DNA of 64,000 bases from Candidatus Lindowbacteria bacterium RIFCSPLOWO2_12_FULL_62_27 (GCA_001784175.1 MFPR01000040.1:44955-108954); one strand, 5' to 3'; positions 7,638-47,600 are shown, counted from the stretch's first letter. Numbers and translations are program-made. The notes: a model not told the origin generated them from the letters alone.

Positions 7638-10600
7638 TCCTCCTTGCCGCCGGAGCCGTGCTGCTGATGATGGAAACGGCGACTTCGGCAATCCAATTCG
7701 ACCGGCGCGCGCCCGAAGGGCTGGTCGGAAACGGCCGGTCGGTGGTGAAGGTCCGGCCGGGCGGTTATGAATTTTTTTCGGGCGGGAAAGCGTCGGGCCG
7801 CATCCGGGTTATGATCGGCGGGAAACGGCGTGAGATTGGCGCGGGGGATGTGCGGCGGTCGGAATTTTTCCCGGGCGGCGTCATCTATTCATTAAATATC
7901 GACGGCGTCGATCTCGACGTCCTGCACGGCGCGCTGAAGGAGGTCGCGTATGTCGCGGCGTTCCGCACGAGGGGTACGCCGCCGCCGGATGTTCAGATCG
8001 ATCTCGAGTCGACTGAAACGCCGGCGGTGTCTCCCTCCGGGCGATTGGACCTCTCGGGCAAGGGCGGGTTTCTTGCGGTTTCCACCGGGTCAGCGCCTCC
8101 GGCGCCCCAAGTGCCGGGGTCTCCGACGCCGGCCGATCCGTCCTATTCGACGAATTCCTGGGATGACCTGCGGGCTGCCGTTGAGGCGCCGTACCTGAAA
8201 GGATTTCAGGTCCGCACGCCGTCGCCGGCCGTCGACCGGGCAGCCCGGTTCTGCCAGTTTTTGCTGGACCTCGGATTTGACGGCCGGCTTCACGTCAGCG
8301 AACTTTTCCGCTGGCGCGACATCTGGTCGCGGGATCTCGGAACGGGTCTCGCGCCGGGCTCGCTGGTCGGCGGCCGGTTCGACGCCGCGCGCATCTCCAT
8401 CCAGTATGATCTCGCGCGATACAAAGCGGCCAACCCAAGAGGCCTGCGGATCACGGAGGACGCGTCCCAGGGCGGGTCGGCCGAAGGGACCGCGTGGCTG
8501 ACACGCGCCGTATGGCGCGATTACCTTTTGAGCGGCGACCGCGCGTTTCTCGCGGAAGCCGCCGGGACGTTGCGTCCGTGGGTGCGGGCGTGGATCGACC
8601 GGGACGCCGACGAAGACGGCCTCGTGATCGACGTCACCGAATGGATGGACCACTCGCGGTTCTTTCTCTTCCCGGACGGCGCCCTCGGGCTGTATTCGAA
8701 CGCGCTGTTCGCGGACCTCCTGGGAACGTTCTCGAAAATCGAAAAGGAACTAGGAGACGAAACCGCCGCCGCCGCCCGGCTCGATGCTTTGCGGCGGAAG
8801 ACCGCCCGCGCGATCAATGACGTTCTCTGGAACGAATCGGCCGGCGCGTACGATAATCTCTCGATCTTCGGGCGAAACGATCAGCGTCTCTCGTCGGCGG
8901 AAAACGCGCTCGCGGTGCTCGCGGGCGTCGCACCGCCCGACCGCGCCCGCCGCGCGCTCCAGACGGTGCGCGACCGGAACTGGCGCAAGGCCGGGTCCGT
9001 CACGATCGCGCCGGCGATGACGCATGTGGACGACAAGAACGACCAGAACGTCCGCGTCTGGCCGTGGTGGAACGCCGTCGAAGCCCGCGCGAGGTTCCGG
9101 ACGGGCGATACGGCGGGCGCCGTGCATCTGCTCGAAAAATGCGCGGCAACGCTGGAGGACGAACACTATCCCGGTCTCATCGAGGAACTGCTGACCCCGG
9201 AGGGCGTGACGGAAGGCGGCCACGCCTTTTTGAGCGCCGCCGGCACGTTCTTGGACGCGCTGTATGAAGGATTGCTCGGGATCGAGATTCTCGAAGCGGG
9301 TTGCGCGCGCATCCGCGTGTCGCCCCACACGCCCGACTGGAAAGCGTGGGAGGCCGCCGTGCCGCTGCCGGGCGGCGATCTCTCCGTGTCTTTCGCCGAC
9401 GGCGTTCTGCGCATCCGCGTGACCGACCCGCGGGTAAAAGTGGTGGAAGCGCCGGCGTCGGCAATTGTTGAGGGAGCGACGCGCGCTGATTTCTCTGTTT
9501 CTCCTGATCCGTCCGAATCTGTTTTCTCAGAATCCAAAATCCAAAATCCAAAATCCAAAATCTCCGACCCGAAGCCCCGCCGCGCCGCGCTCTTCTCCGA
9601 GCCCGGCATCCCGCGCTCGTCCGCCGCGGGCCTGCCCAAGCAGACCATCAACGCGGAGGCGCTCTTGACACTCGACCCCGCCCGGACGCCGGCCCTCGTG
9701 ATCGCCGGCAACGCTCTGCCGCGCCGGACGAAATCCGCCGGAGATGTGCAGAACGCGCTGGCGCGGTACCTGGACGGCGGCGGCGCGATCGTGTTTTTCG
9801 GCGCGACCATGCACGACCGCGGCACGATGGGTGAACACGGCGGCGTGATCGATTGGTACGAGCATCTCCCGCAACTGAAGTACGAGCCGCTGGCCGGCTG
9901 GCGGTTCTCGATCTCGCCGGATGGCCCGGCGGCGCCGCAGGACAAGGAGCACGGTCTGGCCAAAGGCTGGCACCGGCCGGACTTTGACGATCGCGAGTGG
10001 AAACCGATCCGCGTTCCCGGCTGGTGGGAGGACCATCTCGGCCGCGCGCAGGACGGATGGGGCTGGTATCGGACGGAGTTTCTTCTGCCCGAGTCCCGAA
10101 AAGGAAAAACGGTCATTCTGGATATTGGCCGGATCGATGATGACGACTGGATATTCGTAAACGGCGTTCCGGCCGGCTCGGACAAGGGCTGGCAGACGCG
10201 GCGGCTGTACCATCTGAAACCGGGCAGTCCGGCGCACGCGGCGCTGAACTTCGGCGGCCGAAACGTCGTGGCGGTCCAAGTCCTCGATTACGGTGGCGGA
10301 GGCGGCATGCATGCGGACCCGACAAAACTGGCGGTCGAAACGGACGAGTATTCGTGGCAGCCGATCAATCCCAAGACCGGCGTCGTCAGCGAGCAACCAG
10401 TGCGGCACGGCGTCGTGTCCTGGGGGCCGGGCGGAGACTTCTTCAATTCGTGGGAAACGTCCAGAGGCGCATTCGGATTCCGGATTGAAGGACGAAATGT
10501 CTCGTTCGATCCGGAAGGCCCTCTGAAGGGCCTCGCGCCGATCGCAATGACGGTCCATGAAGCCTTCACGGATTTCGCCGTCGCCCGGCCATGGCAATTC

Positions 10601-10780
10601 CAGCCGCTCGCCTTTACGGAAACACGCCGGCGGCTTCTTTACCCGGACAATGGCGAGCGCTACCCGTGCGCGGCCCGCGTGGTGAACACGAAAACCGGAG
10701 GTGAATTCATCCTCGTGCCTGCGTCGCTGGCGGCATCTCCGGCCGGACCTGAACTTCTGCAGAAACTCAGAATCCATTGA
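7634..10780 (+). CDS. six-hairpin (alpha/alpha)6 glycosidase-like protein (GDE_C/GH78/GH63-like region with a W-x-R-D motif) with a C-terminal GH2-N-like jelly-roll sugar-binding domain
   Basis: The ATG at 7634 overlaps the upstream stop (ATGA). N-terminal hydrophobic segment MILLAAGAVLLMM. Motif TAWLTRAVWRDYLLSGDRAF. C-terminal DFDDREWKPIRVPGWWEDHLG..GWGWYRTEF..ILDIGRIDDDDWIFVNG is the jelly-roll domain repeated across this window. It carries an in-frame PKSKIQN heptamer-repeat linker and an in-frame GSAPPAPQVPGSPTP element. Confidence 0.7.
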   Translation: MILLAAGAVLLMMETATSAIQFDRRAPEGLVGNGRSVVKVRPGGYEFFSGGKASGRIRVMIGGKRREIGAGDVRRSEFFPGGVIYSLNIDGVDLDVLHGALKEVAYVAAFRTRGTPPPDVQIDLESTETPAVSPSGRLDLSGKGGFLAVSTGSAPPAPQVPGSPTPADPSYSTNSWDDLRAAVEAPYLKGFQVRTPSPAVDRAARFCQFLLDLGFDGRLHVSELFRWRDIWSRDLGTGLAPGSLVGGRFDAARISIQYDLARYKAANPRGLRITEDASQGGSAEGTAWLTRAVWRDYLLSGDRAFLAEAAGTLRPWVRAWIDRDADEDGLVIDVTEWMDHSRFFLFPDGALGLYSNALFADLLGTFSKIEKELGDETAAAARLDALRRKTARAINDVLWNESAGAYDNLSIFGRNDQRLSSAENALAVLAGVAPPDRARRALQTVRDRNWRKAGSVTIAPAMTHVDDKNDQNVRVWPWWNAVEARARFRTGDTAGAVHLLEKCAATLEDEHYPGLIEELLTPEGVTEGGHAFLSAAGTFLDALYEGLLGIEILEAGCARIRVSPHTPDWKAWEAAVPLPGGDLSVSFADGVLRIRVTDPRVKVVEAPASAIVEGATRADFSVSPDPSESVFSESKIQNPKSKISDPKPRRAALFSEPGIPRSSAAGLPKQTINAEALLTLDPARTPALVIAGNALPRRTKSAGDVQNALARYLDGGGAIVFFGATMHDRGTMGEHGGVIDWYEHLPQLKYEPLAGWRFSISPDGPAAPQDKEHGLAKGWHRPDFDDREWKPIRVPGWWEDHLGRAQDGWGWYRTEFLLPESRKGKTVILDIGRIDDDDWIFVNGVPAGSDKGWQTRRLYHLKPGSPAHAALNFGGRNVVAVQVLDYGGGGGMHADPTKLAVETDEYSWQPINPKTGVVSEQPVRHGVVSWGPGGDFFNSWETSRGAFGFRIEGRNVSFDPEGPLKGLAPIAMTVHEAFTDFAVARPWQFQPLAFTETRRRLLYPDNGERYPCAARVVNTKTGGEFILVPASLAASPAGPELLQKLRIH
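8086..8134. repeat. second intragenic element family (CCGGGTCAGCGCCTCCGGCGCCCCAAGTGCCGGGGTCTCCGACGCCGGCC), in frame as ..GSAPPAPQVPGSPTPA..
   Basis: About 90% identical to 17636-17684. Partial copies at 14743-14764 and 27477-27504, all in the same translation frame. Confidence 0.8.
9530..9561. repeat. heptamer mini-element (CCAAAAT)x4, in frame as a ..SESKIQNPKSKIS.. linker
   Basis: aatccaaaatccaaaatccaaaatccaaaatc inside CDS 7634..10780. Confidence 0.9.
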
Positions 10781-10801
10781 AACGACAGGAGACGAATCCC
10801 T

Positions 10802-13800
10802 ATGAAAAATCTATGGCTGGTGCTTTTCATGACGTCGGTCGCTGCGGCCGTTGAGCCGGCTTCGGCAAAAACGGTTTCCGGAATCCCGGAGAGCCTCTCG
10901 GGGTACTGGTTCTACTGGTCCGACCCCGACGGGACCCTTCGGGCGACGGACATCCAGCAGAGGATGGCGCAGGGCGAGAAACGCAAGATGCTCATCCCAT
11001 CAAATTGGTCGAGGCACGATCGAGATTTACTGAATTACAACGGCGTCGTCTGGTTCGCCCGCGCGTTCAACGCCAAAAAACCACGGCTGACCGAGCGGCT
11101 CTTTCTGCAGTTTGACGGCGTCGATTACGAGGCGGACGTTTTCCTCAACGGCCGGCCGGTAGGACGGCACACCGGATATTTCGAGCCGTTTCGGATCAAC
11201 ATCACCGATACGGTCCAGGCGGGTGAGAACCTCCTGATCGTCCGCGTCAACAGCCCGAGGGACGAGGGATACGCCGACAAGAAAACTCTGATCAAGGGAA
11301 TCTTTGTTCATCACGACTGCCGCCCCGGGTCCAATTCCGGCCAGCAGAATCAGAACGAGCCCACCGGCGGCATCTGGGGAGATGTCCGGCTGGTCCGGAC
11401 GGGGCCGGTGGCGGTTGAGGGCGCGCGGATCATGACGGAACTCAAAGACGGCAAAGGCAGGATCACCGCGCGGTACCGGCTCCGCAACTACTCGGCCTCC
11501 ACGCAGTATCCGCGCCTGAATCTTTCCGTGGCCGGCAAAACCTTCGAGTCGACGCCGGTCAAGGGCCGCGCCAACGTCAAGATCAATCCCGGCGCGATGG
11601 AGGAAGCGGTCGTGACGCTGGACGTTCCCGACCCCCGCCTCTGGTGGACCTGGGACCACGGCCGGCCTGATCTCTATCGGGTCGTCGCCCAGCTCGTGTT
11701 CGAGGGCGTGGTGACGGAGACGCGCGAGGATGCGGTCGGGTTTCGGACCATCGAGTTCGACGAGAAGGCCCTCATCATGAAACTCAACGGCCGCCCCGTG
11801 TTTCACCGAGGTTCCAACTACATCGCGACGCAGTGGCTGGCCGGGTACGGCAGGGAACAGTTTCAAAAGGACATCGATCTCATGAAAGGCGCCAACCTTA
11901 ACTCGATTCGTGTCCACGCGCATGTTCTGCCCCACACGTTTTACGATCTCGCCGACGAGTCGGGCGTCCTCGTCTGGGCCGATTTCGCGCTCATCTGGGG
12001 ATACGACCCCTCCGAATCCTTCGCGCGCGATGCGCTCCGGCAGTACCGCGCGTTCATCGACGGCTGGTTTCACCATCCGTCCATCTGGCTCTGGTGCGCG
12101 CACAACGAAGGCAGCGCCAACGATCCGCTGAACATCCGGCTGGTCGAAATGGCCCGCAGTCTCGACCCCACGCGCGTGCACCTTAAAAACTCCGGCAAGT
12201 GGCCGCCCGGCCCGGGCGGCTGGGACGAACACGAGTATGCGGGGTGGTATGGGGGAAACTATTTGGAATTCGCGGACAAGCAGCATCAGTTCGTCACCGA
12301 ATACGGCGCCCAGGCTGCGCCGGCGGGCTTCGAAAAAATTCTCGCCTCGGGCCACCGCTGGCCGCCGGATCTGGACGACTGGCGTTACCATGATTTCCAG
12401 CTGACTGAAAATCTCCGGAACCTCGGCCCGCTGGAACTTTTCAACAGCGTCGCGGATTTTGTCGAAACCAGCCAGAAATACCAGTACGACCTGCTGAAAT
12501 TCTCGACAGAGGCGTATCGCCGGACAAAGTATCGCCCGCTCGGTGGCATCTACCACTTCATGTTCACCGAATGCTGGCCCGCCATGACCTGGGCGGTCGT
12601 CGATCACGAGCGCGCGCCCAAGCTCGGCTATCACGCGCTGCGCGACGCCATGGCGCCTGTGATTGTTTCTCTGGAAGTTCGCCGGCGCGAGGTTGCGCCG
12701 GGCGAAACGATTGATATCCCGGTCTGGGTCGTGTCCGACCTCGACGAACCCCTGAAGAACTGGCGCGTCCGGTTCGGCGTAGAGGGCGGCGAAGCGCAGA
12801 CATCGGAAGTCAGCTTGGGCGCGGACGCGGCCATGCAGGTCGCCGTTCTCAAAGTGACGGCGCCTGAAACGCCCGGCACGTCCGTTCGAATTTTCTCCGA
12901 ACTGTTTGACTCCGAATCCAAAATCCAAAATCCAAAATCCAAAATCTCAATGTCCGAGTGGGGTTTCGTCGTAAAGAGCGATCCCTTTCGGCTCGGCCAC
13001 TGGACCTTCCGCACCGGCGACGACATGGCTTGGGCGAAGGGCGACGCGGCGCCGGAGGGATTCAAGCCCATCAAGGTTCCCGGCAACTGGGAAAACGACG
13101 GGTATCCGGATTACGACGGATACGGCTGGTACCGCGCGACATTCGTCGTGCCGCCAGCGCACAAGGGAGAACTGCAACTCATGCTGGGGCCCGTCGACGA
13201 CGTGGACGAATTGTACGTCAACGGCGAGTTCGTGGGCCGGACGGGCCGGTTCCCGCCGAATTACGAGACGGCCTGGACCGCGGAACGCGCGTACATGATT
13301 CCGGAAAAATTGTTGCGGAAGGACCGCCCAAACGTGATCGCGATCCGCGTCTATGATTCTACCGGCGGCGGCGGGCCTTACAAGGGTCCCGTCAAACTGA
13401 TCGTTCCGGTCGGAGTCGATCTTGCGTCCGACCGGTGGCGGCTGAAACACGGGGACGATCCGGCGTGGAGCGATCCGGCCTTCAACGACAAGGATTGGAA
13501 ACGCGTCCGCGTGCCGCAGACGTGGGAGGGTACGCTGGGGGAAGTCGACGGATTTGGGTGGTATCGGTTGAAATTTGATGTCCCCCCCTCCGCGCTGCCG
13601 GCGGGCCCTCTGACGCTGACCATCGGCGCGGTCGATGACGTCGATGCGACGTATCTGAACGGCAAAAAAATCGGCCAGACCGGCGAGTTCCCGCCGTCGA
13701 CGGGCGGCGGCGCCACATGGACCACGATGCGGAGATACTTTTTGCCGAGAGACCTTTTGCGCGCGAAGGACAACGTCCTCGCGGTGCGCGTCTACGACGG

Positions 13801-13894: not shown

Positions 13895-14415
13895 AAAGCC
13901 GGAGATTTTGGATTTTGGATTTTGGATTTTGGATTTCAAACATTCCAAACATGATCTGGATCGTGCCGGCGCTCACGATCGGATGCGCCGCGCCGAAGGC
14001 CGATCTGCAGCGGCCCGACGTGACGATGCCCAAGCGCCTGGAAGTCGTCGGAGCGTCGGCGTCCGGCCAGGAGTCCGACGATGTGCGAGCGATGAATGCG
14101 TTCGACGGCGATGCGAAAACCCGCTGGTCGTCCCCGCATGCCGACCACCAGTGGCTGGTGGCGGATCTCGGGTCGGACCGCACCGTGATCGGTGTCAAGC
14201 TCGTGTGGGAGGCCGCGTTCGGAGAGGAGTATCGCGTGGAGGGATCCTTGAACAACGAGGATTGGTCCAAACTCGCAACGGTCCGGGGCGGGGACGGCGA
14301 GGAGGACCAGATCGAGTTTCGCCCGGCCAAGCTGCGGTACCTGCGGATCAACTGTGTCCGCCGCGGCACGGAGTATGGATTTTCCCTGTATGAGGTCCAA
14401 GTCTGGGGATTTTAA
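13891..14415 (+). CDS. small secreted/lipoprotein-like single F5/8 type C (discoidin) domain protein
   Basis: The ATG at 13891 overlaps the upstream stop (ATGA). N-terminus MKSRRFWILDFGFWISNIPNMIWIVPALTIGC (heptamer element plus signal/lipobox-like segment). Discoidin motifs NAFDGDAKTRWSS..HQWLVADLG..GFSLYEVQVWGF. Confidence 0.7.
   Translation: MKSRRFWILDFGFWISNIPNMIWIVPALTIGCAAPKADLQRPDVTMPKRLEVVGASASGQESDDVRAMNAFDGDAKTRWSSPHADHQWLVADLGSDRTVIGVKLVWEAAFGEEYRVEGSLNNEDWSKLATVRGGDGEEDQIEFRPAKLRYLRINCVRRGTEYGFSLYEVQVWGF
13904..13936. repeat. heptamer mini-element (GATTTTG)x4.7, opposite orientation, at codons 4-15 of CDS 13891..14415 (RFWILDFGFWI)
   Basis: gattttggattttggattttggattttggattt starts 10 nt after the start codon. 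Confidence 0.9.
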
Positions 14416-14431
14416 AAAACATGTGCGCCAT

Positions 14432-14561: not shown

Positions 14562-17500
14562 ATGATATTTTGGAGTCTGAGCTGTCTCCTCCTGTCATCG
14601 GCCACGGTCGCGGACGCGGTCGAGTCGCTCCGGAACGTGTCGCTGTCCGCCAAGCCAACCGCGTCTTCTCAGTTCGATGCCGCGTCGGGCCCGCGCAACG
14701 CCATCGATGCGTCGCGGCGATCCACCTGGATCCCCGCGACCGCCGGGTCAGCGCCTCCGGCCGGAGAGGAGTGGCTGCTCCTTGAATTCGACCGCGAGGA
14801 AAACCTGCGGCGCGCGGTCCTGAACTGGGAGTTTTCCCTCAAGGCGAACTGGCGCATCGAAATTTTGCGCGGCGGGATGTGGACCGAAGCGGCGCGCGGC
14901 GTCAAGGACGGAACCGCAACGCGGATCGTCGAACTTGGAGGAAAGCGCGCGGACAAGGTGAAGCTCGTCTGCTCGGGCGCCACGCCCATGGCCTGCTCGC
15001 TGGCGGACTTCCAAGTCTGGGCGGTCGAATCGGATGTGTTTGGCGGGACGTTGGAACCGGCGGCACCGGCGCCGCCAAAATCTGAACCGGCGAAACCCCA
15101 GCCGTCCGCACCAGTCCCTGTCTTCGTCCCCGTTCCGGCGCCACCCAAGCCTCCGAAACCCGCTCCTCCACCACCGGCCGTTCCGAAACGCGAACCGGCG
15201 CCGATCCTGTCCCGGGTTCAGGCTCCGTCCAAACTCCTCGCGCCCCCGCCGCCGGCCGCAAAGAAAGCGAGCGCGCCCAGCCCCAGCCCGATTTTGCCGA
15301 TCCCTTCTCCGGTTTCTCCCCCCTTTACAAGGGGGGATCAAGGGGGGTCCGGTCTCGGGTCACGGCCGCCGGCCGACGTTCGGCCGCATCTCACGACGCT
15401 TGTAGAATCGTTTGACAATATATTGGAAAGCGTGCCCTTGGGCGCCGCGCCGGTGGCGGAGGCGTCCGAAGGCTGCGTGATGCAGGGCGCCGTGACGGGT
15501 GGCGGCTGGGGCCGGGGCGGAAGGGGCGAGGCGTACCGGGCGCGGTTCGTGGTCGTGCCGGACGGCGTCGCGACGCTGAGCCAGAAATTGAAATCGTCGG
15601 CCCCGAGCGGATGGTCGGAACTCTCCTTCTGGGTCAGAGGGTCATGGGCGGCCGGCGCCCCGCTCGAAGTCGTTCTCGCGGACGACGCAAACCAACAGGC
15701 GGCCTTGGCGGCGCCCGGAACGGAAGGCGGCAGTGCGCTCTGGCGCCAGATTAAAATCCCAGCCGGCGCCGTCAAGAAAATCAATCGCGACCGCATCAAG
15801 TCCTATATCCTCCGGTTCACGCCGGCGCATCAGGCGGGAGAAGTCTACATCGACGACATTTATCTCCACGGCGGCGCCGCACCGGGGAAGCCCCGCTCCT
15901 CCGCGGCGGATCCAAAGAAGGCTTCCGCCTCCATCTCTCCAGAACCTCCGGCCTCTATCCCTGTTTCCGACCTCGATCCGCCAGAATCTAAAATCCAAAA
16001 TCCAAAATCCAAAATCTCAAATGTTTTACCGGAGGTTCGCCCCTTCACCTACGACCCCAAAGACCGGCAGGCGGTCCACGAGATGCTGTTGGCGGCCGCC
16101 ATGAACGACCCGAAAACATCGGAGGGCCTCTCGGACGACGAATTTCTTGATCTGGTCGAACGCCGCGCGTTTTTGTATTTCTGGTATGGCGCCAATCCCG
16201 AAAACGGGATCACGCTGGATGGCGCGAAAAACTGGAAACCGGACGATGACCTCGACTGGAATTCGATCGCGGCGGTCGGGTTCGGCCTCACCGCCATCTG
16301 CATCGGCGCCGAACGCGGGTGGATCTCCAAAGAGATGGCTTACGAGCGGTGCCGCGTGACGCTCGACGCCTACTTGAACAAAATACAGAACAACCACGGG
16401 TTTTATTATCATTTCACCAATCGCAAGGGCATGAACGACCGCAATACCGAGCTTTCGTCGATCGACTCCCTCCTCATGTTTTGCGGGATGCTCTTCGCCG
16501 CTGAGTATTTCAAGAGCACGGAGGTCGAGAAAATGGCCCGGCAGATTTTTGAGCGGGTCGACTGGCGGTGGATGCACGACAACCGTAAGTTCGCGTCAAT
16601 GGCGGTGGACCCCGGCGGTAAATTTAATCCCGCAAGCTGGGACCGGCACTGCGAAGGGCAGATCCTGTCCATCCTCGAACTCGGGCATCCCCAAAACATG
16701 CCGACAGACCTCTGGTTCGACATGCCGGAACAATACGGCACATATCGGGGGTACCGCAGCCTCAACCAGGGGCCGCTCTTTACGTTTCAGTTTCCGTCCA
16801 ACTGGATCGATTTCAGGGACCGCAACGACGGGGCCGTCAATTTCTGGGAGAACGGGATCGAAGCGACGCTGGCCAACCGCTTTTACGCCATTGAAAAAAT
16901 GCCTGAACGCAAGGGGTACGGCCCGAACTCGTGGGGATTCACCGCCGGCGATTTCCCCGGCGGATACCATGCGTTTGCCGCTCCGCCCTCTTATCCGGGC
17001 GAGGACGGCACCGTCACGATCAACGCGGCGGGCGGATCTGTCATATTCACGCCGCATCTGTCCACCCAGGCGCTCCGATGGATGTACGACAACCTGCACG
17101 ACAAAGTCTGGGGCAAGTACGGGTTTACGGACGGATACAACCTCGACAAGAACTGGTCCTGCGACCGCGTGATCGGGATTGGCACAGGACCCGTTCTCCT
17201 CTCCATTGAAAATCACCGCACCGGATTCGTCTGGAAATATTTCATGCAGAACGACTATGTCAAACGCGGCATGGAACGCGTTGGCTTTAAGGACGAGCCG
17301 CGCCGGACCGCCAAAGCCCGGCCGCTGGACCTTGCCGGATACTGGAAATGGAAACCCGGCGACAACAAAACGTGGAGCAAGCCCGAGGTCGACGACTCCG
17401 GCTGGCGCGACATGTACGCGCCCGACAAGTGGGAAGTACAGCTCACGCAGGACGGCGACCGCAAGATGGCCGAGTACGACGGGTTCGGCTGGTACCGCCG

Positions 17501-31494: not shown

Positions 31495-34107
31495 ATGAAA
31501 ACTGAGATTTTAGATTTTAGATTTTGGATTTTGGATTCCAATAAGGGCGGTTTGAGATGGGCTACCGCGATTCTCATCCTGCTGCTCTGCGCCGGCCTTC
31601 CTGAGGCTCAGGCCGCGCTCAGCAAATCATCGCCGACCGGCGAGGAGGTCTGGCGCATCAACTGCGGCGCCACCGCCGCCGATTACGCCGATCCGGCCGG
31701 GAACACATGGGTCAAGGACGAGGATTTCTACTCCATTTACCGCTGGGGCTACATCAACGGCAACACCGCCTCCACCACCTCCAACATCACCAACACCTCC
31801 ACGCCCGAAATTTACAAGTCCAGCCGCTGGGGCGGAACGAACCTGTCCTACAAGGTCGAAGTCCCCAACGGCACCTACCGCGTCCGGCTCATGTTTGCGG
31901 AGACGTACTGGAACCAGGCCGGCAAGCGCGTGTTCAACGTGGCCCTCGAAGGCAACACGCTGTGGTCCTTCGTCGACATCTGGGCCTGGGCCGGCAATGC
32001 GATGAACAAGGCGATGGACCTGACGGCCGACGTGACGGTGACGGACGGCGTCCTCGACGTGACGTTTCCCGTCGTTCAGATGGACAACGCCTGCATCAGC
32101 GGGATCGAGGTCAAGGTCCTCACGCTGGCCGACGACGCGTTCCTCGATTTCGTGCAGAAAAAGATGTTCTGGTTTTACTGGAACGAGGCCGACGTTCAGA
32201 CCGGCCTCGTCAAATGGGGCGAGAACAATTTCGCCCAGGGGTACGGCAACACCTCCAGCATCGCCACCGATGGGTTCGCCCTCTCCATCTATACGATCGC
32301 CGCCAGCCGCGGATGGATCACGCGCCAGCAGGCGTACGATCGCGTCATGAAAATGCTGAATACGTTTGAGACTGTCATCCAGAACGTGCATGGTTTCTGG
32401 TGGCATTTCGTCTACACCGCCACCGGCGCGCGCGAGGGCACAACCGAAATCTCGACCGTCGACTCCGCGCTCTTTATCATGGGCGCGCTCCAGGCCGGCG
32501 AGTTTTTCCGAAGCGACCATCCGGACGTCGCGTCCAAGGCGGACCTTCTGTACCGCCGCATGGAGTGGAGCTGGTTTCTGAACGTCAATGCCGGCGATCC
32601 GTATCTGAACCGGTTCGTCAACATGGGCTGGAAGCCCGAGTATCAGCCGGGATCGCCGCACGGCTACGTCATCGCGAGCGGCCGGCCCGAAGGCGGTTAT
32701 TTCGTGAACGACTGGTGGAACCGGTACAGCGAATCGGTCTTCGTGAACTTCCTCGCGCTCGGCTCGCCCACCTACTCGGCCGGTCCGGCGGCTTGGACGG
32801 ACATGGGCAAGCCGTGGGTCGACGATTTTGGCTATCACTACGTGAACGAGCCGCCGCTTTTCACGCACCAGTTTCATCATCTCTATTACGACATGCGAAA
32901 CCGGCACGACGGCAAGGTCGACTACGTCGACAACACCCGCAAGGCCACGCAGGTCAACCGCCTCACGTGCGAGAACGACAGCCGCTATGAGCCCAAACGC
33001 TGGGGGCTGTCGGGTTCCAACGGGCCGACGGGCTATCAGGCCTACGGCGCCGGCACGGGCGGGTTCCACGACGGCACGGTCGATCCGGCCGCGCCCGCCG
33101 CCACGATGAACATCACGCCCACGGAGTCGATCCAGGCCACGCGGTTCATGTTCTTCCAGTACAAGCATCACATCTGGGGCCAGTACGGGTTTTCGGACGC
33201 GTTCAACGTGAGCGCCGACTGGAAGGACTGGCTCTTCGACGGCCTCAGCGCCGGCGCGCTCGTCATTGGCATCGAAAATTACCGCACCGGCATGGTGAGA
33301 AACGAGTTCATGAAAAATCCATACCTTGCGACCGCCTACGCTCAGGCCGGCATCAAGACCTTCGGCCAGTCCGCGCTCTACAACGCATCGACCGGCAGTG
33401 ACGCGCCGAACGCGTTCGACAACAACATGACCACGCGCTGGGGCTCGGCCTTCGCCGACCCGCAGTGGCTCGAAGTCGACTACGGCGCCGGACGGACGTT
33501 CAACAAGGTCACGATCAACTGGGAGGCGGCCTACGGCAAGGACTACAAGATCCAGGCGTCGTGGGACGCGAACACGTGGTGGGACGTCGCGACCGTCGTG
33601 AACGGCAACGGCGCCACGGACATCCTGACCTTCCCGATGAACACCGCCCGATACTGGAGAATGTACGGCACGAAACGCGGCACGGCGTGGGGCTATTCGA
33701 TCTGGGAGATGAAATTCGAGAACACGGTGAATCTCGCTCTGAACAAGCCGGCCACGTCCTCATCCAACGAAAACTCGGGCGTCACGGCGCCGAAGGCCTT
33801 CGACGGCAGCTTCACGACGCGCTGGGCGTCACTGTGGAGCGACCCGCAGTGGGTCCGGGTCGACCTCGGCTCGAACCAGAACGTGAGCCGCGTGATCCTG
33901 CACTGGGAGTACGCGTACGGCAAGGACTACAAAATCCAGACCTCGACGGACAACATCAACTGGACGGACCGCTTCACGGCGGTCAACGGCGACGGCGGCG
34001 TCGATGAGTGCCCGTTCACGGCCGTGAGCGCCCGGTACATCCGCATGTACGGCACCGCGCGCGGCACCGGGTTCGGGTATTCGCTGTGGGAGATGCAGGT
34101 GCAGTGA
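31495..34107 (+). CDS. secreted glycoside hydrolase: malectin-like CBM, then a GH144-like (alpha/alpha)6 catalytic domain, then two C-terminal F5/8 type C domains
   Basis: GGAGG 7 nt upstream of ATG 31495. N-terminus MKTEILDFRFWILDSNKGG followed by a signal peptide. Malectin-like ..WRINCGATAADYADPAGNTW..YRVRLMFAETYWNQAGKRVFNVALEGN..ISGIEV. Catalytic motifs DDAFLDFVQKKMFWFYWNEADVQTGLVK and IENYRTGMV. Two discoidin repeats ending GYSLWEMQVQ. Confidence 0.8.
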   Translation: MKTEILDFRFWILDSNKGGLRWATAILILLLCAGLPEAQAALSKSSPTGEEVWRINCGATAADYADPAGNTWVKDEDFYSIYRWGYINGNTASTTSNITNTSTPEIYKSSRWGGTNLSYKVEVPNGTYRVRLMFAETYWNQAGKRVFNVALEGNTLWSFVDIWAWAGNAMNKAMDLTADVTVTDGVLDVTFPVVQMDNACISGIEVKVLTLADDAFLDFVQKKMFWFYWNEADVQTGLVKWGENNFAQGYGNTSSIATDGFALSIYTIAASRGWITRQQAYDRVMKMLNTFETVIQNVHGFWWHFVYTATGAREGTTEISTVDSALFIMGALQAGEFFRSDHPDVASKADLLYRRMEWSWFLNVNAGDPYLNRFVNMGWKPEYQPGSPHGYVIASGRPEGGYFVNDWWNRYSESVFVNFLALGSPTYSAGPAAWTDMGKPWVDDFGYHYVNEPPLFTHQFHHLYYDMRNRHDGKVDYVDNTRKATQVNRLTCENDSRYEPKRWGLSGSNGPTGYQAYGAGTGGFHDGTVDPAAPAATMNITPTESIQATRFMFFQYKHHIWGQYGFSDAFNVSADWKDWLFDGLSAGALVIGIENYRTGMVRNEFMKNPYLATAYAQAGIKTFGQSALYNASTGSDAPNAFDNNMTTRWGSAFADPQWLEVDYGAGRTFNKVTINWEAAYGKDYKIQASWDANTWWDVATVVNGNGATDILTFPMNTARYWRMYGTKRGTAWGYSIWEMKFENTVNLALNKPATSSSNENSGVTAPKAFDGSFTTRWASLWSDPQWVRVDLGSNQNVSRVILHWEYAYGKDYKIQTSTDNINWTDRFTAVNGDGGVDECPFTAVSARYIRMYGTARGTGFGYSLWEMQVQ
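31506..31537. repeat. heptamer mini-element (GATTTTR)x4.5 at codons 4-14 of CDS 31495..34107 (EILDFRFWILD)
   Basis: gattttagattttagattttggattttggatt follows ATGAAAACTGA. Confidence 0.9.
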
Positions 34108-35750
34108 AAAAACCTGAGATTTTAGATTTTAGATTTTCGATTTTTCTTCCATTCTGTCCAAAGTCGTCGAAGGAGTCGTTGGCCATAGTCTTACTGGCGT
34201 GCGCCGTTGTGATGTGCCCGGAGGCAACTTGGGCAACGCATCTGGGCACCTGCCATGACAGCAATCACGTGACATGTTTCTCGACGGCCCCCAGTCACAC
34301 TCAGGAATTCATCAGCATGGGCTGGCTTAGCTACCATGACATCGCGTTCGGATTGCTGATCAAACCGGGATGGAAACAGGGAATCCTGAGCGCATATAAT
34401 TGGAGTCCGCACGTTCCCAACCATATCACGGAGGTAACCAGTGTGGATCTGGTGCGATGGGATGTTTTCGGCGATTTTCCAGGCTATTATCGAGACGCGC
34501 TGGCTTCAGGAATCCCAGTTCCGATCGCATCGGGTGGGGGCACCGTAGGTTCCTTCTTGCCAACGCGCGGGGGAACATTTTATACGGGAACGAAGATAAA
34601 CATCTCCGCACGCTATGAGGGTTATTATCCATGGCTGGAGCCGCTGGGCGGATATAATTCAGACGGATCGGCCAACAAAGGTCCCATCGAGTTCACCAAT
34701 CCAGAGTGGGGCGTGGGACCCCAATTCGACGAATGGGGGTTTGAGGTGAGACCATGGTGCATCGCATTGCAGATGCGGCTTGAGAATTTGACCCCCGGGG
34801 ACCTGAATCCGCCGGAAGAGGTTCAGCCAAAGAACGCCGATCCGGGCGATCCCACGAATGAGAAATCGAAGGTCCGATCCAGGTTGTCCGGAACATCTGT
34901 GCCGTCCTTGCTGGCGGGGGGTGCATACGTGGGGTGGTATATCGAAGGAGAAGGCGGGGGACATGAGGAAGCGCATCACGCCACACCAAGACCGGTCGGC
35001 ACGTTTGAGAATGGCCAGTGGCTGCATTTCGAACACGTGCCGACGGGGCAGACCGTCGATCTCACTCGGACATATACCGCTGGCGAATTCGGGGGCGACG
35101 AGCGAATCAAGGTTGTGGTCAGCGACAAGCCGTTGACTGCTTCGAGCCTTCCGAGATCGACGCTTGCGGAACAGGCGTCGGCCCGGGAGGTATTGAAGCA
35201 GGAGGGTATCGCGGCGGCGGGAAACGACGAAGGCGTCCGCGGCGACGGCACCGGCTGCGCGTTTGGGACCGACGTCTACGTTTTCTGGCCGGGCCTTCAA
35301 GAAATCTCGGATGGGGCGGATTACGAAAAAACGGGACAAACCCCTTCACACCCTCGGAACCACCATGGAACCTCAGATTTGATTATGGCTATTGAGAAAG
35401 TAGCCTTTAAATATAGAGAAACCACGAAGAACAGCCCCGGTCTTGATGAAGCCATTATCCGTGTCAATGACATGAGTCTTGAGAATGGCGGAGCGTTTGA
35501 TATTTGCGCCACGTGGGATATACACGATAATAGTTGTTTGTCTGATCCCAAACCGCCGACGGCTCACAATCGTCACAGAACGGGAAAGAGTGTGGATATC
35601 AGTAAATTCCATAAAGTGATATCTACTGGGTCCGTGGTCCTCCTCGGGAATAATACCTTTCTGGTACAACAATTATTTACAAATGAAAATCTAAATATTT
35701 CTTCACAATTATTTGCGCAATTCGGAAGACTGCATTTTGAACTGCAATGA
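34104..35750 (+). CDS. secreted protein with a C-terminal LAS/M15-like zinc-peptidase-like domain (possible peptidoglycan hydrolase); the C-terminal domain is low-GC
   Basis: The GTG at 34104 overlaps the upstream stop (GTGA); a TTG at about 34179 is an alternative start. N-terminus KKPEILDFRFSIF.. (heptamer element) followed by a signal peptide. C-terminal motif ..AHNRHRTGKSVDIS.. (H-x-T-G-x-x-V-D as in VanY/M15). GC content drops sharply from about 35330. Confidence 0.55.
   Translation: MKKPEILDFRFSIFLPFCPKSSKESLAIVLLACAVVMCPEATWATHLGTCHDSNHVTCFSTAPSHTQEFISMGWLSYHDIAFGLLIKPGWKQGILSAYNWSPHVPNHITEVTSVDLVRWDVFGDFPGYYRDALASGIPVPIASGGGTVGSFLPTRGGTFYTGTKINISARYEGYYPWLEPLGGYNSDGSANKGPIEFTNPEWGVGPQFDEWGFEVRPWCIALQMRLENLTPGDLNPPEEVQPKNADPGDPTNEKSKVRSRLSGTSVPSLLAGGAYVGWYIEGEGGGHEEAHHATPRPVGTFENGQWLHFEHVPTGQTVDLTRTYTAGEFGGDERIKVVVSDKPLTASSLPRSTLAEQASAREVLKQEGIAAAGNDEGVRGDGTGCAFGTDVYVFWPGLQEISDGADYEKTGQTPSHPRNHHGTSDLIMAIEKVAFKYRETTKNSPGLDEAIIRVNDMSLENGGAFDICATWDIHDNSCLSDPKPPTAHNRHRTGKSVDISKFHKVISTGSVVLLGNNTFLVQQLFTNENLNISSQLFAQFGRLHFELQ
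34117..34144. repeat. degenerate heptamer mini-element at codons 5-14 of CDS 34104..35750 (EILDFRFSIF)
   Basis: gattttagattttagattttcgattttt follows GTGAAAAAACCTGA. Confidence 0.85.
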
Positions 35751-44548: not shown

Positions 44549-44666
44549 TGAGGGTCGGGAACGTGTCGGTCAAAATCGAGAGGTCGGGTCTGACAACTTT
44601 TGAAATTGAATAGATCGGGTTGGGACGCTGTCTTTTAGAAACGACAAAAAGAGATTAAAGGAGATT

Positions 44667-47600
44667 ATGATGAAAGCGCTTTCAACAACGAGGTATCCGG
44701 AAATCCGATGGGCGACGATTGGGCTGGTCAGTGCACTCATACTTTCCTGCTGGTTTTGTATCGCCTATGCTTCTCCGAATCTGGCGTTGAACAAGTCCGT
44801 CACCGTGTCGAGCGCGGAAGGCGGGAACGTCGGATCGAACGCGGTCGATGGGAATTCCGGAACCCGCTGGAGCAGCGATTTCAGGGATCCGCAATGGATA
44901 CGGGTGGACCTCGGGTCGACGGCGGCGGTCAACCGCGTTGTTCTGAACTGGGAGGCGGCCTACGGGCGGGAGTATCGGATTCAGGCTTCTTCCAACGGCG
45001 TCGATTTTACGGACATCCTCTATATTAATAATGGCGATGGCGGATTTGACGACCTCGGGTTTGCTCCGGTTCAAACGCGATATGTCCGGTTGTACGGGAT
45101 CGCGCGCGGCACGCCCTGGGGATACTCGCTGTGGGAGCTCGAAGTCTACGTCGATGACGAGTCGCCGGCCGCGCCCGTCGTGAACGCGACGTCGGCGTGG
45201 TCGAACATCGAGATGGAGGCGCGGACGATCAGCGGGACGGTGGAGCCGAACGCGACGGTGATCCCGTACGTAGAGGTGTTCGGGTCGTCGTACGAGCAGA
45301 CGAACGTGCAGGCGGGCGGCGACGGCAACTGGAGCGCGCCGGTGAACATCTGGGGACCGGACGGGACGGAGTTCAAAGTCTACGCGGCCGCGCGGGACGC
45401 GGCCGGCAACTGGAGTGGGCGGTCGAACGAGCAGATCATCCGAAAAGATTTGTCGGCGCCGGCGGCGCCCGTCGTGAACGTGACCTCGGCGTGGTCGAAC
45501 GTGGAGCAGGAGGCGCGGACGATCAGCGGGACGGCGGAGGCGAACGCGACCGTGATCCCGTACGTCGAGGTGTTCGGATCGTCGTATGAGCAGACGAACG
45601 CGCAGGCGGGACCCGACGGGACCTGGAGCGCGACGGTGAACATCTGGGGTCCGCACGGGACGGAGTTCAAAGTATATGCGGCGGCGAGGGACGCGGCCGG
45701 CCACTGGAGCGGGCGGTCGAGCGATCAGACGATTCGAAAAGACCTCCTCGCGCCGGCGACGCCTCTTCTTTATCCGATGTCGCCCTGGTCCACCACTGAA
45801 AACGAGGTCCGGATTATCTCGGGCCGCGCTGAGCCTTACACGACGATCGTTCCGTATGTTTCGGTTCTCGGCAACGGCACCTTCGAGCAGACGAGCGTGC
45901 GGGCCGACACGAGCGGTTCGTGGCTGGCCACGGTCAATCTGTTCGGGCCTGACGCATCTGAATTTGATATTTATGTTCAGGCCTTGGACGACGCGGGCAA
46001 CGCCAGCCCCCGCTCGAACTTGGATCACGTCCGCAAGGATGTCTCGGCCCCGGCCGCGCCGGAGGTGTTCGCGACATCGGAGTGGTCGAACATCGAGAAC
46101 GAGGCGCGGACCATCAGCGGCGTCACGGAACCTTACGCGACGGTCGCGCCGTTTGTAGAAGTGGTCGGCATCGGCACGTGGGAACAGGCGAACGTTGCGG
46201 CCGACGCGTTCGGCGCCTGGAGCGCCTCCGTCAATATCTGGGGGCCCGACGCCACCGAGTTTCATATCTACGGCGTCGCCAAAGACGCGGCCGGCAATGT
46301 CGGGCCGCGGTCGAACGCGCTGACCGTCCGCAAGGACCTCGTCGCGCCGGTCATCACGATCGATGCGGTCGAAAGCCCGACCGATCAGGACGTGACGCTG
46401 CGGTATACGGTGGTGGACGCCAACCCGACGGCCGTCACGGGAGACAACAGTCCCTACACGGCCGAGGGCGAGCACACCGCGACGCTGACCGCGACCGACG
46501 CGGCCGGAAACAGTTCGAGCGCGTCCATCACGTTCGTCATCCATCGCGCGCCTCCGCCGCCGGTCGACGGCGCCGCGCCGGTGACGACGCTTTCCATCGA
46601 TCTCATCAACGAATCCACCAAGACCGCGATCTCGCAGAGCCTGGTGACGCTGAGCGCAGAGGACGCCGCGGGCGAGGGCGCCTCGGGCGTGGCGGCGATC
46701 GAGTTCCGGTTTGACGACGGCGCATTTCTGAACTACGCCGGCGCATTCACTCTGGAGGGGTTGGCCTTGGGCGCGCACACGCTGGAGTACCGGAGCCGCG
46801 ACGTGGCCGGCAATGTCGAGACGGCGCACCGGCTGGAGTTCAGCGTGGCCGACGCGCTGGCGATTTCGCGACAGACCAACGAGGGCATCGCGCCGAACCT
46901 CCTCGTGTGGCTGAACTACCGGGAGGGCAAGGGATCGAACAGCGGCAAGCTCTTTGCGGATGGTGAGGATGAGGTCGACGTGGCGCTCCTCGATCAGGTT
47001 CTGGCGGACGCCGGCGCGCTGTCGGTCACGAAGGTCGTGTCGCGCCAGGATTACGTCAAGGCGCTGCGCAGCGGCGATTACAACGCGTATCTCATTTTGG
47101 GCAACCGGTCGAACTCAAAGAACGCCGGCACGTACGACGAGGAGCTTCGCGAGCGCGTGCGCCGCGGAGAAGCGGTGGTGGCATCATTCTGGCGGAGCGG
47201 CCGGCTGGCCGACGCGCGGGTGGAGGGCCGCAGTGTGTGGGGCGCGCTGGTGCGCGACGGCAAGACCGGGAAGCGCGATCTGACCGCGACGTTTTTCGGC
47301 GGCAACCTCGTGGCGGACACGCTGTCGATCCAAGCCGACGGCAAGACGCGGCGGGTGAGTCTGAGCGCCAAGGATCAGAGTCCGGACGTGTCCGTGATCG
47401 GCGTCGTCGACTGCGGCGCCGGCGCTCCGGACGACGAGTGCGAGGACCCGGACGGCGGCGATGACGACGAGTGCGGCGACGACGACGGCTGCGGGGACGA
47501 CGGCCCTGAAATCCAAAATCCAAAATCCAAAATCCAAAATCTCAATCAGAGCGTGGCCGTGAGCAACTCGTATCATCAGGGGCGCGCCGTTTACGTGCCG

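What the first reader, a model, noticed from the sequence alone, without database searches (positions are those of the whole stretch)
9530..47541. Dispersed ~35-nt element made of heptanucleotide units (GATTTTG/CAAAATC)x4-5, always inside reading frames, in both orientations
Eight copies in 64 kb (9530, 12915, 13904, 15985, 26463, 31506, 34117, 47509), with conserved ends (GAGATTTTGG...GGATTC).
- In one orientation the element is in frame in the middle of enzyme genes. There it encodes (S)E(S)KIQNPKSKIS linkers between catalytic and binding modules. This occurs four times.
- In the other orientation it sits 5-12 nt after the start codon of four secreted-protein genes. There it encodes M(K/R)x(R)RFWILDFGFWI, ahead of a normal signal peptide.
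- A 7-nt unit is not a multiple of 3, so gain or loss of one unit would shift the frame. Internal copies could act as slipped-strand switches that detach C-terminal binding domains.
- Start-proximal copies put 4-5 GGA motifs at 7-nt spacing on the mRNA right at the initiation region. That spacing is like CsrA/RsmA sites, so they could also be translational control elements.
- Alternatively, these are sites of module shuffling by recombination, or simply a selfish mini-element that survives only in frame-neutral positions.
I know of no described element with this structure.
Basis: seen in the sequence. Interest (0 to 1): 0.85.

Follow-up and report, generated by a model that had tools for sequence, protein, structure and literature searches.

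The report
Dispersed heptamer repeat inside genes
Eight copies of one 35-base element built from four GATTTTG units sit inside genes of an uncultured groundwater bacterium; it is a new family of an already described class of bacterial heptamer repeats, and it survives in genes because it has no stop codon in any frame.

Summary
The window holds eight in-register copies of GA(GATTTTG)4GATT[C/T/G]; chance would give about none. All lie in + strand reading frames of a glycan-degradation locus of Candidatus Lindowbacteria.

- **Internal copies (4):** they read CAAAATC in the mRNA and encode (E)SKIQNPKSKI. Two lie in variable linkers or loops by ortholog alignment, and two look linker-like from their flanking sequence.
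- **Start-proximal copies (4):** they read GATTTTG 7-11 nt after a start codon and encode hydrophobic FWILDFGFWI or EILDFRFWILD ahead of, or inside, a signal peptide.

The element is kept at the DNA level, not as a protein motif:
- its boundaries are identical in all copies;
- it uses codons that are rare in this genome;
- a 73%-identical relative carries decayed copies at the same sites;
- more distant orthologs lack it.

Unit number is four in every copy and in every independent assembly, so a slipped-strand switch is not supported. CsrA binding, G-quadruplex, terminator, promoter and start-site-opening roles found no support either.

Heptamer tandem repeats are a described bacterial class (STRR, TAACTGA, GGGNATC). 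The same GATTTTG array, with the same preferred length, occurs in many phyla, usually just upstream of start codons. I file it as a new member of a known kind, most likely passenger DNA filtered by what translation tolerates.

The parts
9530..9564 (-). Copy 1, perfect: GAGATTTTGGATTTTGGATTTTGGATTTTGGATTC on the - strand. The + strand mRNA reads CAAAATC units and encodes SESKIQNPKSKIS inside gene 7634-10780 (six-hairpin glycosidase-like).
   Evidence: In the alignment with nine relatives it falls in a variable proline-rich linker. A relative (L127) has a G-to-A/T variant copy at the same place.
12914..12948 (-). Copy 2, perfect and 35/35 identical to copy 1. It encodes SESKIQNPKSKIS inside the GH2 gene 10802-13894, about residues 704-715.
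   Evidence: The 73%-identical ortholog P0002/L127 has a decayed copy (4 substitutions). Orthologs of 62% identity or less lack it, a net gain of 6 residues in AELxDxxGKIxSxxEW.
13902..13936 (+). Copy 3, perfect. It starts 8 nt after ATG 13891, which overlaps the GH2 stop codon (ATGA). It encodes MKSRRFWILDFGFWIS ahead of MIWIVPALTIGC in a 174-aa discoidin-domain protein.
   Evidence: The gene is called with this start in 6 contigs. The relative L127 has the element in the opposite orientation right after the ATG at this gene junction.
15984..16018 (-). Copy 4, with one G-to-A change. It encodes PESKIQNPKSKISN inside ORF 14562-17867, between a discoidin-like region and the PF10091 domain.
   Evidence: The flanks are proline-rich. 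No ortholog could be retrieved.
26461..26495 (+). Copy 5, perfect. It starts 5 nt after ATG 26453, which overlaps the upstream stop codon. It encodes MRRRFWILDFGFWIVGILLCWSLSAVAA, a signal-peptide-like N-terminus.
   Evidence: Gene callers use the TTG at 26474 inside the element, at the same position in three contigs. No in-frame start exists after the element and before the hydrophobic core (read from the sequence).
31504..31538 (+). Copy 6, with two G-to-A changes. It starts 6 nt after ATG 31495, which has GGAGG 6 nt upstream. It encodes MKTEILDFRFWILDS ahead of the signal peptide NKGGLRWATAILILLLCAGLPEAQA.
   Evidence: The called product is P0121. Five homologs, including a paralog in this window, have plain signal peptides without it.
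34116..34145 (+). Copy 7, degenerate: GAGATTTTAGATTTTAGATTTTCGATTTTT. It starts 9 nt after GTG 34104, which overlaps the upstream stop codon. It is either translated (VKKPEILDFRFSIF) or lies in the 5' leader.
   Evidence: The gene caller starts this gene at 34317, which would leave the copy untranslated.
47509..47543 (-). Copy 8, perfect. It encodes PEIQNPKSKIQNLN (another phase) inside the 1220-aa gene 44667-48329, directly after an acidic Asp/Cys-rich low-complexity tract.
   Evidence: It is unchanged in three assemblies found through a neighbouring gene.

Best explanation
These are eight copies of one 35-nt dispersed DNA element, GA(GATTTTG)4GATT. It is a genome-specific family of the known class of bacterial heptanucleotide tandem repeats.

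The unit has no stop codon in any of the six frames. It reads DFGFWIL one way and QNPKSKI the other. A copy that adds a whole number of codons therefore does not truncate a gene.

In this gene-dense locus the surviving copies are those whose translation is harmless:
- The lysine- and proline-rich reading sits in variable linkers and loops of multidomain secreted glycosidases.
- The hydrophobic reading sits in the N-terminal leader or signal peptide, which is presumably cleaved off.

The copies are made or kept alike at the DNA level, by copy-and-paste or gene conversion whose enzyme is unknown. They are not kept by selection on the peptide. They do not act as slipped-strand switches.

**Shown:** the anatomy, the stop-free property, the location of two internal copies in variable segments by alignment, the shared boundaries, the rare codons, presence in one relative and absence in more distant ones, and the invariant unit number.

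**Inferred:** that the element is a neutral or selfish passenger, the tolerance filter, and the mode of spread.
For: 1. One family, not independent slippage. All 8 copies are in register with the same left flank GA, which is seen in 3 of 131 arrays of other genomes. All have four units. Five copies are perfect in all four units, and two pairs are 35/35 identical.
2. DNA-level identity. The element uses codons that are rare here: CCA 5% of Pro, TCA 4% of Ser, CAA 16% of Gln, TTG 9% of Leu, GGA 16% of Gly.
3. Gain in one lineage. The GH2 copy is absent from orthologs of 62% identity or less. It is present but decayed in the 73% ortholog. The N-terminal copy of gene 31495 is absent from five homologs. 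There are no copies in 22.5 kb of a 67% relative, and no array of the GATTTTG type in 1.0 Mb of unrelated loci.
4. Tolerated sites. A variable linker, a loop at the end of the GH2 core, and N-termini ahead of or within signal-peptide-like segments.
5. Orientation matches context. All 4 hydrophilic readings are internal and all 4 hydrophobic readings are N-terminal. In low-GC genomes of other phyla, long ORFs contain the array almost only in the CAAAATC sense.
6. No unit-number change in assemblies reached through neighbouring genes.
7. The class is described, including copies inside ORFs at protein peripheries.
Against: - None of the eight copies is clearly intergenic. A pure passenger should accumulate there, although intergenic DNA is only a few per cent of this window.
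- Four copies, plus one in the relative L127, lie 4-11 nt after a start codon. That is tighter than tolerance alone predicts and hints at targeting or function.
- The GH2 copy is better conserved between the window and L127 than about 90% of 12-codon windows of the same gene (88.9% against 72.9% overall). Perfect copies at sites shared with a 73% relative need conversion or selection.
- The net length gain relative to orthologs is 4-6 residues, not 12, so a clean insertion is not demonstrated.
- No mobilising enzyme, inverted terminal repeats or target duplication were found.
Confidence: 0.5

Rival explanations
1. The array is a landing pad for a single-strand nucleic-acid-binding protein, such as ribosomal protein S1, a cold-shock protein or a CsrA-like protein. 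It tunes translation initiation. The four start-proximal copies would be functional and the internal ones by-products or internal start enhancers.
For: - In other phyla the same array sits just upstream of an ATG-led ORF in the CAAAATC sense in 51 cases, against 10 in the other sense. It often ends as CAAAATG.
- TAACTGA repeats show the same placement, and S1, Csp and CsrA were proposed for them.
- The CAAAAUC RNA is predicted to be completely unstructured.
- B. subtilis CspB binds one heptamer per protein, with consensus GTCTTTG/T (PMC1904285). GATTTTG matches it at 5 of 7 positions.
- Array length has a sharp 31-33 nt mode across phyla.
- Two internal copies are followed by an ATG within 5 nt.
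Against: - In this window no copy is upstream of a start codon.
- The start-proximal copies are in the sense that is rare elsewhere, and half the copies are 1.5-2.8 kb inside genes.
- Predicted accessibility of the start region is not raised by the element: 0.20-0.50 against a mean of 0.47 for other genes.
- The ATG after copy 4 is out of frame.
- Per PMC4679880, GGA spacing of 7 nt is shorter than in known CsrA sites.
- No binding protein was identified.
Confidence: 0.22
2. The copies are contingency loci. Gain or loss of one 7-nt unit shifts the frame, switching secreted proteins off or detaching C-terminal binding modules.
For: The unit is not a multiple of three, and four copies lie at the 5' end of genes for secreted proteins. 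SSRs are reported to be enriched near N-termini of prokaryotic genes (Lin and Kussell, as cited in PMC4692102).
Against: - All eight copies have exactly four units.
- There is no length variant in contigs from about ten samples, including those retrieved through neighbouring genes and so unbiased for the element.
- The apparent split of two genes in other records is due to runs of N, not to the array.
- From general knowledge, four units is a short tract for efficient slippage.
- Arrays in other phyla also cluster at 4-4.7 units instead of spreading.
Confidence: 0.06
3. The copies are sites of recombination, either inversion or module shuffling, between glycosidase genes.
For: Copies occur in both orientations. 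The inverted pair 12914(-)/13902(+) is 954 nt apart. At the gene junction downstream of GH2, the relative L127 carries the element in the opposite orientation. Internal copies lie near module borders.
Against: The GH2 C-terminal segment between the inverted pair is collinear in the window, in L127 and in more distant orthologs. No rearranged arrangement appears among the contigs of the population. A 35-nt identity is short for efficient homologous recombination (general knowledge).
Confidence: 0.07
4. It is an ordinary protein motif, a linker or signal-peptide extension selected at the peptide level. Alternatively it is a G-quadruplex-forming repeat like GGGNATC.
For: The peptides are physico-chemically suited to their places. 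Four units plus GATT give exactly four GG tracts, and a preference for four units was linked to G4 formation for GGGNATC.
Against: - The same DNA is used in both orientations and in different phases.
- There is no synonymous variation among the perfect copies, despite rare codons.
- Orthologs do without it.
- A two-tetrad quadruplex with 5-nt loops scores +12.8 kcal/mol in the ViennaRNA model, against -8.4 for the (GGGAAUC)4 control. None is predicted.
- Three copies have lost GG tracts.
Confidence: 0.05

Closest known systems
TAACTGA direct repeats of marine Beggiatoaceae, some cyanobacteria and Bacteroidetes (MacGregor 2015, PMC4679880)
   Same: One heptamer is repeated 2-6 times at many loci of a genome, while related heptamers are not repeated. 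The distribution across phyla is patchy. Copies sit close to start codons. A minority lie inside ORFs, at protein peripheries, including a glycosyl hydrolase. The mechanism of spread is unknown.
   Different: TAACTGA gives stop codons in all three forward frames, so it is mostly intergenic and can be inside genes in only one orientation. GATTTTG is stop-free in all six frames. Here it is in ORFs in both orientations, with a fixed four units.
GGGNATC heptamer repeats of Xanthomonas and Nostoc (Rehm et al. 2015, PMC4692102)
   Same: [quoted passage not shown] The cross-phylum GATTTTG arrays, and three of the window's G-sense copies (8-10 nt after a stop codon), follow the same geometry.
   Different: [quoted passage not shown] The present unit has GG only, no quadruplex is predicted, and all copies here are in ORFs.
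Cyanobacterial STRR heptanucleotide repeats (Calothrix PCC 7601; cited in PMC4692102; unit sequences recalled from memory)
   Same: Short tandemly repeated heptamers, dispersed, in several families per genome. Many of the 120 loci with GATTTTG arrays are from Nostocales, and other heptamer arrays often abut them.
   Different: STRR are described as intergenic and specific to cyanobacteria. This family is in a candidate-phylum bacterium with 62% G+C and is translated.
Phase-variable simple sequence repeats at the 5' end of surface-protein genes
   Same: A repeat whose unit is not a multiple of three, placed just after the start codon of exported proteins.
   Different: The tract is short with a fixed unit number. 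No variation was seen across copies or assemblies.

Membership tests
Bacterial dispersed heptanucleotide tandem repeats (STRR / long SSR class; TAACTGA, GGGNATC) | Head-to-tail direct repeats of a 7-nt unit, a few units per array | tested here: met
   Period 7, 4.0-5.7 copies at 88-100% matches by Tandem Repeats Finder. Four exact or near-exact units in each of eight copies.
Bacterial dispersed heptanucleotide tandem repeats (STRR / long SSR class; TAACTGA, GGGNATC) | One particular heptamer dispersed at many loci of the genome, far above chance | tested here: met
   Eight loci in 38 kb against about 0 expected. The only other period-7 row is a weak 2.8-copy GGCGTGA. No array of this family in 1.0 Mb of unrelated loci.
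Bacterial dispersed heptanucleotide tandem repeats (STRR / long SSR class; TAACTGA, GGGNATC) | Preferred small unit number (about four) | tested here: met
   8 of 8 copies have four units plus GATT. In 131 arrays of other genomes the exact periodic run peaks at 31-33 nt.
Bacterial dispersed heptanucleotide tandem repeats (STRR / long SSR class; TAACTGA, GGGNATC) | Mostly intergenic, hugging start or stop codons | tested here: inconclusive
   In the window all copies are in ORFs. Four of them lie 5-9 nt after a start codon, and three of those lie 8-10 nt after the upstream stop codon. In other phyla the placement is as expected: 51 arrays within 60 nt upstream of an ATG-led ORF.
Bacterial dispersed heptanucleotide tandem repeats (STRR / long SSR class; TAACTGA, GGGNATC) | Patchy occurrence of the same heptamer array in distant phyla, cyanobacteria prominent | tested here: met
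   More than 120 loci in Cyanobacteria, Chloroflexota, Acidobacteriota, Planctomycetota, Verrucomicrobiota and others. 22 viral contigs.
Phase-variable contingency locus (slipped-strand SSR) | Unit number differs between copies, strains or populations | tested here: not met
   Identical arrays in all contigs from about ten samples. Read-level variation could not be examined.
Phase-variable contingency locus (slipped-strand SSR) | Repeat in a reading frame or promoter, with a unit not divisible by three | tested here: met
   A 7-nt unit inside ORFs.
CsrA/RsmA binding-site cluster | GGA motifs presented in hairpin loops, typically overlapping the Shine-Dalgarno sequence, spaced more than 7 nt apart | tested here: not met
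   GGA is present every 7 nt in the G sense only. The RNA folds only into a weak G-U hairpin of -2.7 kcal/mol. The motifs lie after the start codon. The spacing criterion is from PMC4679880.
CsrA/RsmA binding-site cluster | A CsrA homolog encoded in the genome | not testable with these tools
MITE / REP-type mobile mini-element | Terminal inverted repeats or a palindromic hairpin, and target-site duplication | tested here: not met
   The element is a direct repeat. The flanks of the eight copies share no duplication. There is no stable fold.
G-quadruplex-forming heptamer repeats (GGGNATC type) | Four G tracts able to form a stable quadruplex | tested here: not met
   Four GG tracts in five copies, fewer in three. 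No quadruplex is predicted, whereas the (GGGAAUC)4 control is. No biophysical test was possible.

The most novel reading that the evidence does not exclude
The (CAAAATC)4-5 array would be a portable module found in many phyla. It would replace the Shine-Dalgarno region just upstream of start codons, as a landing pad for S1 or a cold-shock-type protein, or as part of a promoter for near-leaderless mRNAs. It would keep a fixed length of about 32 nt because it is read by a defined number of binding domains.

In Lindowbacteria it would have invaded reading frames. The start-proximal copies would tune export-protein synthesis. The internal copies, two of which are followed by an ATG within 5 nt, would allow separate synthesis of the C-terminal carbohydrate-binding modules.
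Probability: 0.1. Interest if true: 0.7.

Novelty: new member of a known kind. Interest (0 to 1): 0.4.

Why it matters
- **Annotation.** The case shows that a short repeat free of stop codons in all six frames can live inside genes, and that its orientation sorts by what the encoded peptide does: hydrophilic in linkers, hydrophobic in leader peptides. This matters for annotating candidate-phylum genomes. Start codons and signal peptides are shifted or blurred by the element, and short-k-mer assemblies may break at it.
- **An open question.** It adds a well-defined family, with orthologous old copies, to the unresolved problem of why bacteria accumulate heptamer arrays of about four units next to start codons.
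- **Scope.** The cross-phylum recurrence of this exact array with a sharp length mode is the part most worth a dedicated study. The Lindowbacteria copies themselves are probably passengers.

Tried and rejected
- **Close relatives in metagenomes.** The metagenome scan for relatives of the GH2 gene returned nothing above 41% identity, so it served only as a 1.0-Mb negative control.
- **Orthologs of ORF 14562-17867.** The third homolog search found only the query itself, so copy 4 has no ortholog test.
- **RNA families.** Rfam gave no match in the window at gathering thresholds.
- **Promoters and terminators.** Hits are not above shuffles. A few promoter-like hits use the element's CAAAAT or TAAAAT as a -10 box on the - strand, but the counts are at chance level.
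- **Opening of the start region.** Predicted unpaired probability around the start codon is not higher with the element than without it or than in other genes.
- **G-quadruplex.** Not predicted.
- **Target-site duplication or inverted termini.** None found.
- **Unit-number variants.** None found. Two apparent gene splits in other records are runs of N or a 12-nt indel in a neighbouring acidic repeat.
- **Is GATTTTG an unusually common heptamer array?** A composition-matched control (GTTATTG) is as frequent in viral contigs (27 against 22 loci), another (GTATTTG) is rare (3), and TAACTGA is commoner (54). Abundance alone is therefore not special. Only the narrow length distribution is.
- **Literature.** No paper in the library contains the array or its peptides.
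- **Walking along the genome.** This was limited to 10 kb on each side, and no further copies were found.

Full report
**Observation**

The 14-mer GATTTTGGATTTTG (up to 2 mismatches) occurs 30 times in the window, in eight clusters. Dinucleotide-preserving shuffles give 0.47. Tandem Repeats Finder reports the same eight period-7 arrays.

Put in one orientation, the eight copies are in register: GA, four GATTTTG units, then GATT followed by C, T or G, 35 nt in all.
- Five copies are perfect in all four units.
- Copy 15984 has one G-to-A change and copy 31504 has two.
- Copy 34116 is degenerate.

The window has about 61% G+C and the element is 69% A+T.

**Source and genes**

The window matches contigs of Candidatus Lindowbacteria bacterium RIFCSPLOWO2_12_FULL (GCA_001782795.1) and several independent assemblies.

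The + strand ORFs are real genes. They include GH2, six-hairpin glycosidase-like, PF10091 'glucoamylase', discoidin, malectin, GH3, GH15 and GH94 domains. Domains lie on both sides of the internal copies.

**Placement**

- **Internal copies.** Four copies read CAAAATC in the mRNA, deep inside long genes. Three encode ESKIQNPKSKIS and one, in another phase, encodes EIQNPKSKIQNL.
- **Start-proximal copies.** Four copies read GATTTTG and begin 5-9 nt after an ATG or GTG. Three of these start codons overlap the stop codon of the upstream gene. They encode RFWILDFGFWI (two copies), EILDFRFWILD or EILDFRFSIF, ahead of or merging into a signal-peptide-like hydrophobic segment.
- **Confidence in the start codons.** ATG 31495 has GGAGG 6 nt upstream and is the called start (P0121). 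ATG 13891 is the called start in six contigs. For copy 26461 the callers use a TTG inside the element. For copy 34116 they start downstream at 34317. Translation of that degenerate copy is therefore uncertain.

**Stop-free unit**

Because 7 and 3 are coprime, each strand of the array reads one cyclic heptapeptide in all three phases: DFGFWIL on one strand and QNPKSKI on the other. Neither contains a stop codon (read directly from the sequence).

**Is it a protein motif or DNA?**

The GH2 gene gives the clearest test.
- Its 73%-identical ortholog (P0002, locus L127) has, at the same place and with the same length, GAA TCC AAA ATC GAA AAT CCT AAA TCC ATC ATC TCA. That is the element with four substitutions.
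- Orthologs of 62% identity or less have a conserved AELxDxxGKIxSxxEW segment that is six residues shorter, with no repeat.

The upstream gene shows the same pattern. Its copy lies in a proline-rich linker whose length and sequence vary among nine relatives. L127 again carries a variant copy at the orthologous place.

The N-terminal copy of gene 31495 is absent from the signal peptides of a 67% ortholog, a 62% paralog in this window and three further homologs.

The codons used by the element are rare in this genome: CCA 5%, TCA 4%, CAA 16%, AAT 24%, TTG 9%, GGA 16%. Yet perfect copies show no synonymous variation, and the same DNA serves in both orientations and several phases.

The left flank GA is present in 8 of 8 copies here and in 3 of 131 arrays elsewhere. 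The copies are therefore one family kept alike at the DNA level. They are not independent slippage products and not a selected peptide.

Between the window and L127, the 12 codons of the GH2 copy are 88.9% identical, against 72.9% for the whole gene. That places them in the top 10% of windows. This mild excess is compatible with gene conversion or a nucleotide-level constraint.

**Phase variation**

All copies have four units.
- Contigs reached through neighbouring genes, and so unbiased with respect to the element, carry identical arrays at copies 9530, 12914, 26461 and 47509.
- Contigs found through the 174-aa protein are identical at 12914 and 13902.
- Two apparent gene splits in other records are runs of N or an indel in an adjacent acidic repeat.

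Consensus assemblies cannot show rare variants. Even so, nothing supports a slipped-strand switch.

**Other functional ideas tested**

- **RNA structure.** The CAAAAUC RNA is predicted to be fully unstructured. The GAUUUUG RNA forms only a -2.7 kcal/mol G-U hairpin.
- **G-quadruplex.** None is predicted. The model energy is +12.8 kcal/mol for two tetrads with 5-nt loops, while a (GGGAAUC)4 control gives -8.4.
- **Start-region opening.** The element does not make the start region more open. Unpaired probability is 0.20-0.50, against a mean of 0.47 for 16 other genes, and is not higher than with the element deleted in silico.
- **Promoters, terminators, RNA families.** Promoter- and terminator-like hits are at shuffle level. 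Rfam finds nothing.

**Distribution**

- No further copy lies in the 10 kb to the left or right of the window.
- There is none in 22.5 kb of a 67%-identity relative, and no array of this family in 1.0 Mb of unrelated metagenome loci.
- The exact 25-mer occurs in more than 120 loci of species-representative genomes from many phyla. These include Nostocales and other cyanobacteria, Chloroflexota, Acidobacteriota, Planctomycetota, Verrucomicrobiota, Omnitrophota and Rhodothermales. It also occurs in 22 viral contigs.
- In those genomes the exact periodic run peaks at 31-33 nt, which is again four units plus GATT.
- An ATG-led long ORF begins within 60 nt downstream in the CAAAATC sense in 51 cases, against 10 in the other sense. 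The array often ends as CAAAATG.
- Long ORFs of low-GC genomes contain the array almost only in the CAAAATC sense.
- Other heptamer arrays frequently abut it.
- Control heptamers show that such arrays are generic. In viral contigs GTTATTG gives 27 loci, GTATTTG 3 and TAACTGA 54. The GTTATTG control lacks the narrow length mode.

**Comparison with what is known**

Dispersed heptanucleotide tandem repeats are a described bacterial class.
- Mrazek's survey found heptamers to be the commonest long SSR unit (summarised).
- MacGregor described 169 TAACTGA arrays of 2-6 units. Most lie directly upstream of start codons, and some lie inside ORFs at protein peripheries, including a glycosyl hydrolase. 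S1, Csp and CsrA were discussed as possible binders, and the mode of spread was unknown.
- Rehm described GGGNATC arrays with a preference for four units, placed next to start and stop codons.

The present element meets the defining features of this class, except that in this window it is entirely within ORFs. That is possible for GATTTTG because it is stop-free in all six frames, whereas TAACTGA carries stop codons in its forward frames. No paper in the library contains this array or its peptides.

**Verdict**

It is not categorically new. It is a new sequence family, in a new host phylum, of a known kind of repeat.

The best-supported account is a DNA-level passenger whose surviving copies are filtered by what translation tolerates. 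I put that at about 0.5. A role of the start-proximal copies in translation initiation, through a single-strand-binding protein, is the main rival at about 0.2. That rival rests mainly on the cross-phylum placement and on the resemblance of GATTTTG to the CspB consensus GTCTTTG/T, which is a lead and not a test.

Three observations remain open:
- the tight clustering of copies 4-11 nt after start codons;
- the opposite orientation of the element at one orthologous gene start in L127;
- the maintenance of perfect copies at old sites.

Noticed in passing
L001-L120 (genome loci) and L210-L231 (viral loci): The identical (GATTTTG)n array occurs in many phyla, with a sharp mode of 31-33 nt. It usually sits in the CAAAATC sense directly upstream of a start codon and often ends as CAAAATG. 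No paper in the library mentions it. This cross-phylum pattern may be more interesting than the window itself.
   Followed up: partly
L006, L033, L034, L040, L041, L048, L073, L095, L118 (flanks of the arrays): Arrays of other heptamers (GATTGCG, GACTGCG, CCACTTG, GATCCCT, GGTTTTG, GAAGAAT and others) directly abut the GATTTTG array in several phyla, as if different heptamer arrays form at the same sites.
   Followed up: no
L057, L110, L089, L067, L042, L059, L088, L102: In several genomes two GATTTTG arrays face each other across a short spacer, giving a long A/T-rich hairpin. This form is not seen in the window.
   Followed up: no
L127:1-30 and L127:4395-4427: The contig of the 73%-identity relative begins and ends inside copies of the element. 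This is consistent with assembly breaks at a multi-copy repeat (inference; I recall this collection being assembled with short k-mers). At its 3' end the element follows the ATG of the gene downstream of GH2 in the opposite orientation to the window's copy 13902.
   Followed up: partly
window 14438-14462, 14518-14542, about 1940-1975 and about 22433-22458: There is a second small repeat family of G+C-rich palindromes, CCTCTCCCCCC-GCA-GGGGGGAGAGG. They are REP- or terminator-like hairpins at gene junctions. They make the ORFs starting at 14421 and 22420 look longer than the genes probably are (the callers start the first at 14562).
   Followed up: partly
window 45163-45742: A 294-nt tandem duplication (2.0 copies, 88% identical) lies inside the 1220-aa gene. 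It probably duplicates an Ig-like domain.
   Followed up: no
window 47429-47502: A tandem repeat of 18 and 33 nt encodes an Asp/Cys/Gly-rich acidic tract immediately upstream of copy 47509. One assembly (L317) lacks 12 nt here. This is the only length polymorphism seen near any copy.
   Followed up: partly
window 59819-64000 and beyond: An ORF called as 6209 aa in one assembly starts at about 59819 and runs off the window. In another record of identical sequence the same stretch is called as many small - strand genes.
   Followed up: no
window 58439-59097: A PIN-domain and PhdYeFM antitoxin gene pair lies on the - strand between the GH15 gene and the giant ORF.
   Followed up: no
window 240-58396: The locus is a dense cluster of secreted glycan-degrading genes: GH94, GH2, three or more PF10091 proteins, GH3, GH15, a cellulase-family protein and many discoidin and malectin modules. 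It also holds a LacI-type regulator and sigma-54 activators. All eight element copies lie within this cluster, between 9.5 and 47.5 kb.
   Followed up: no
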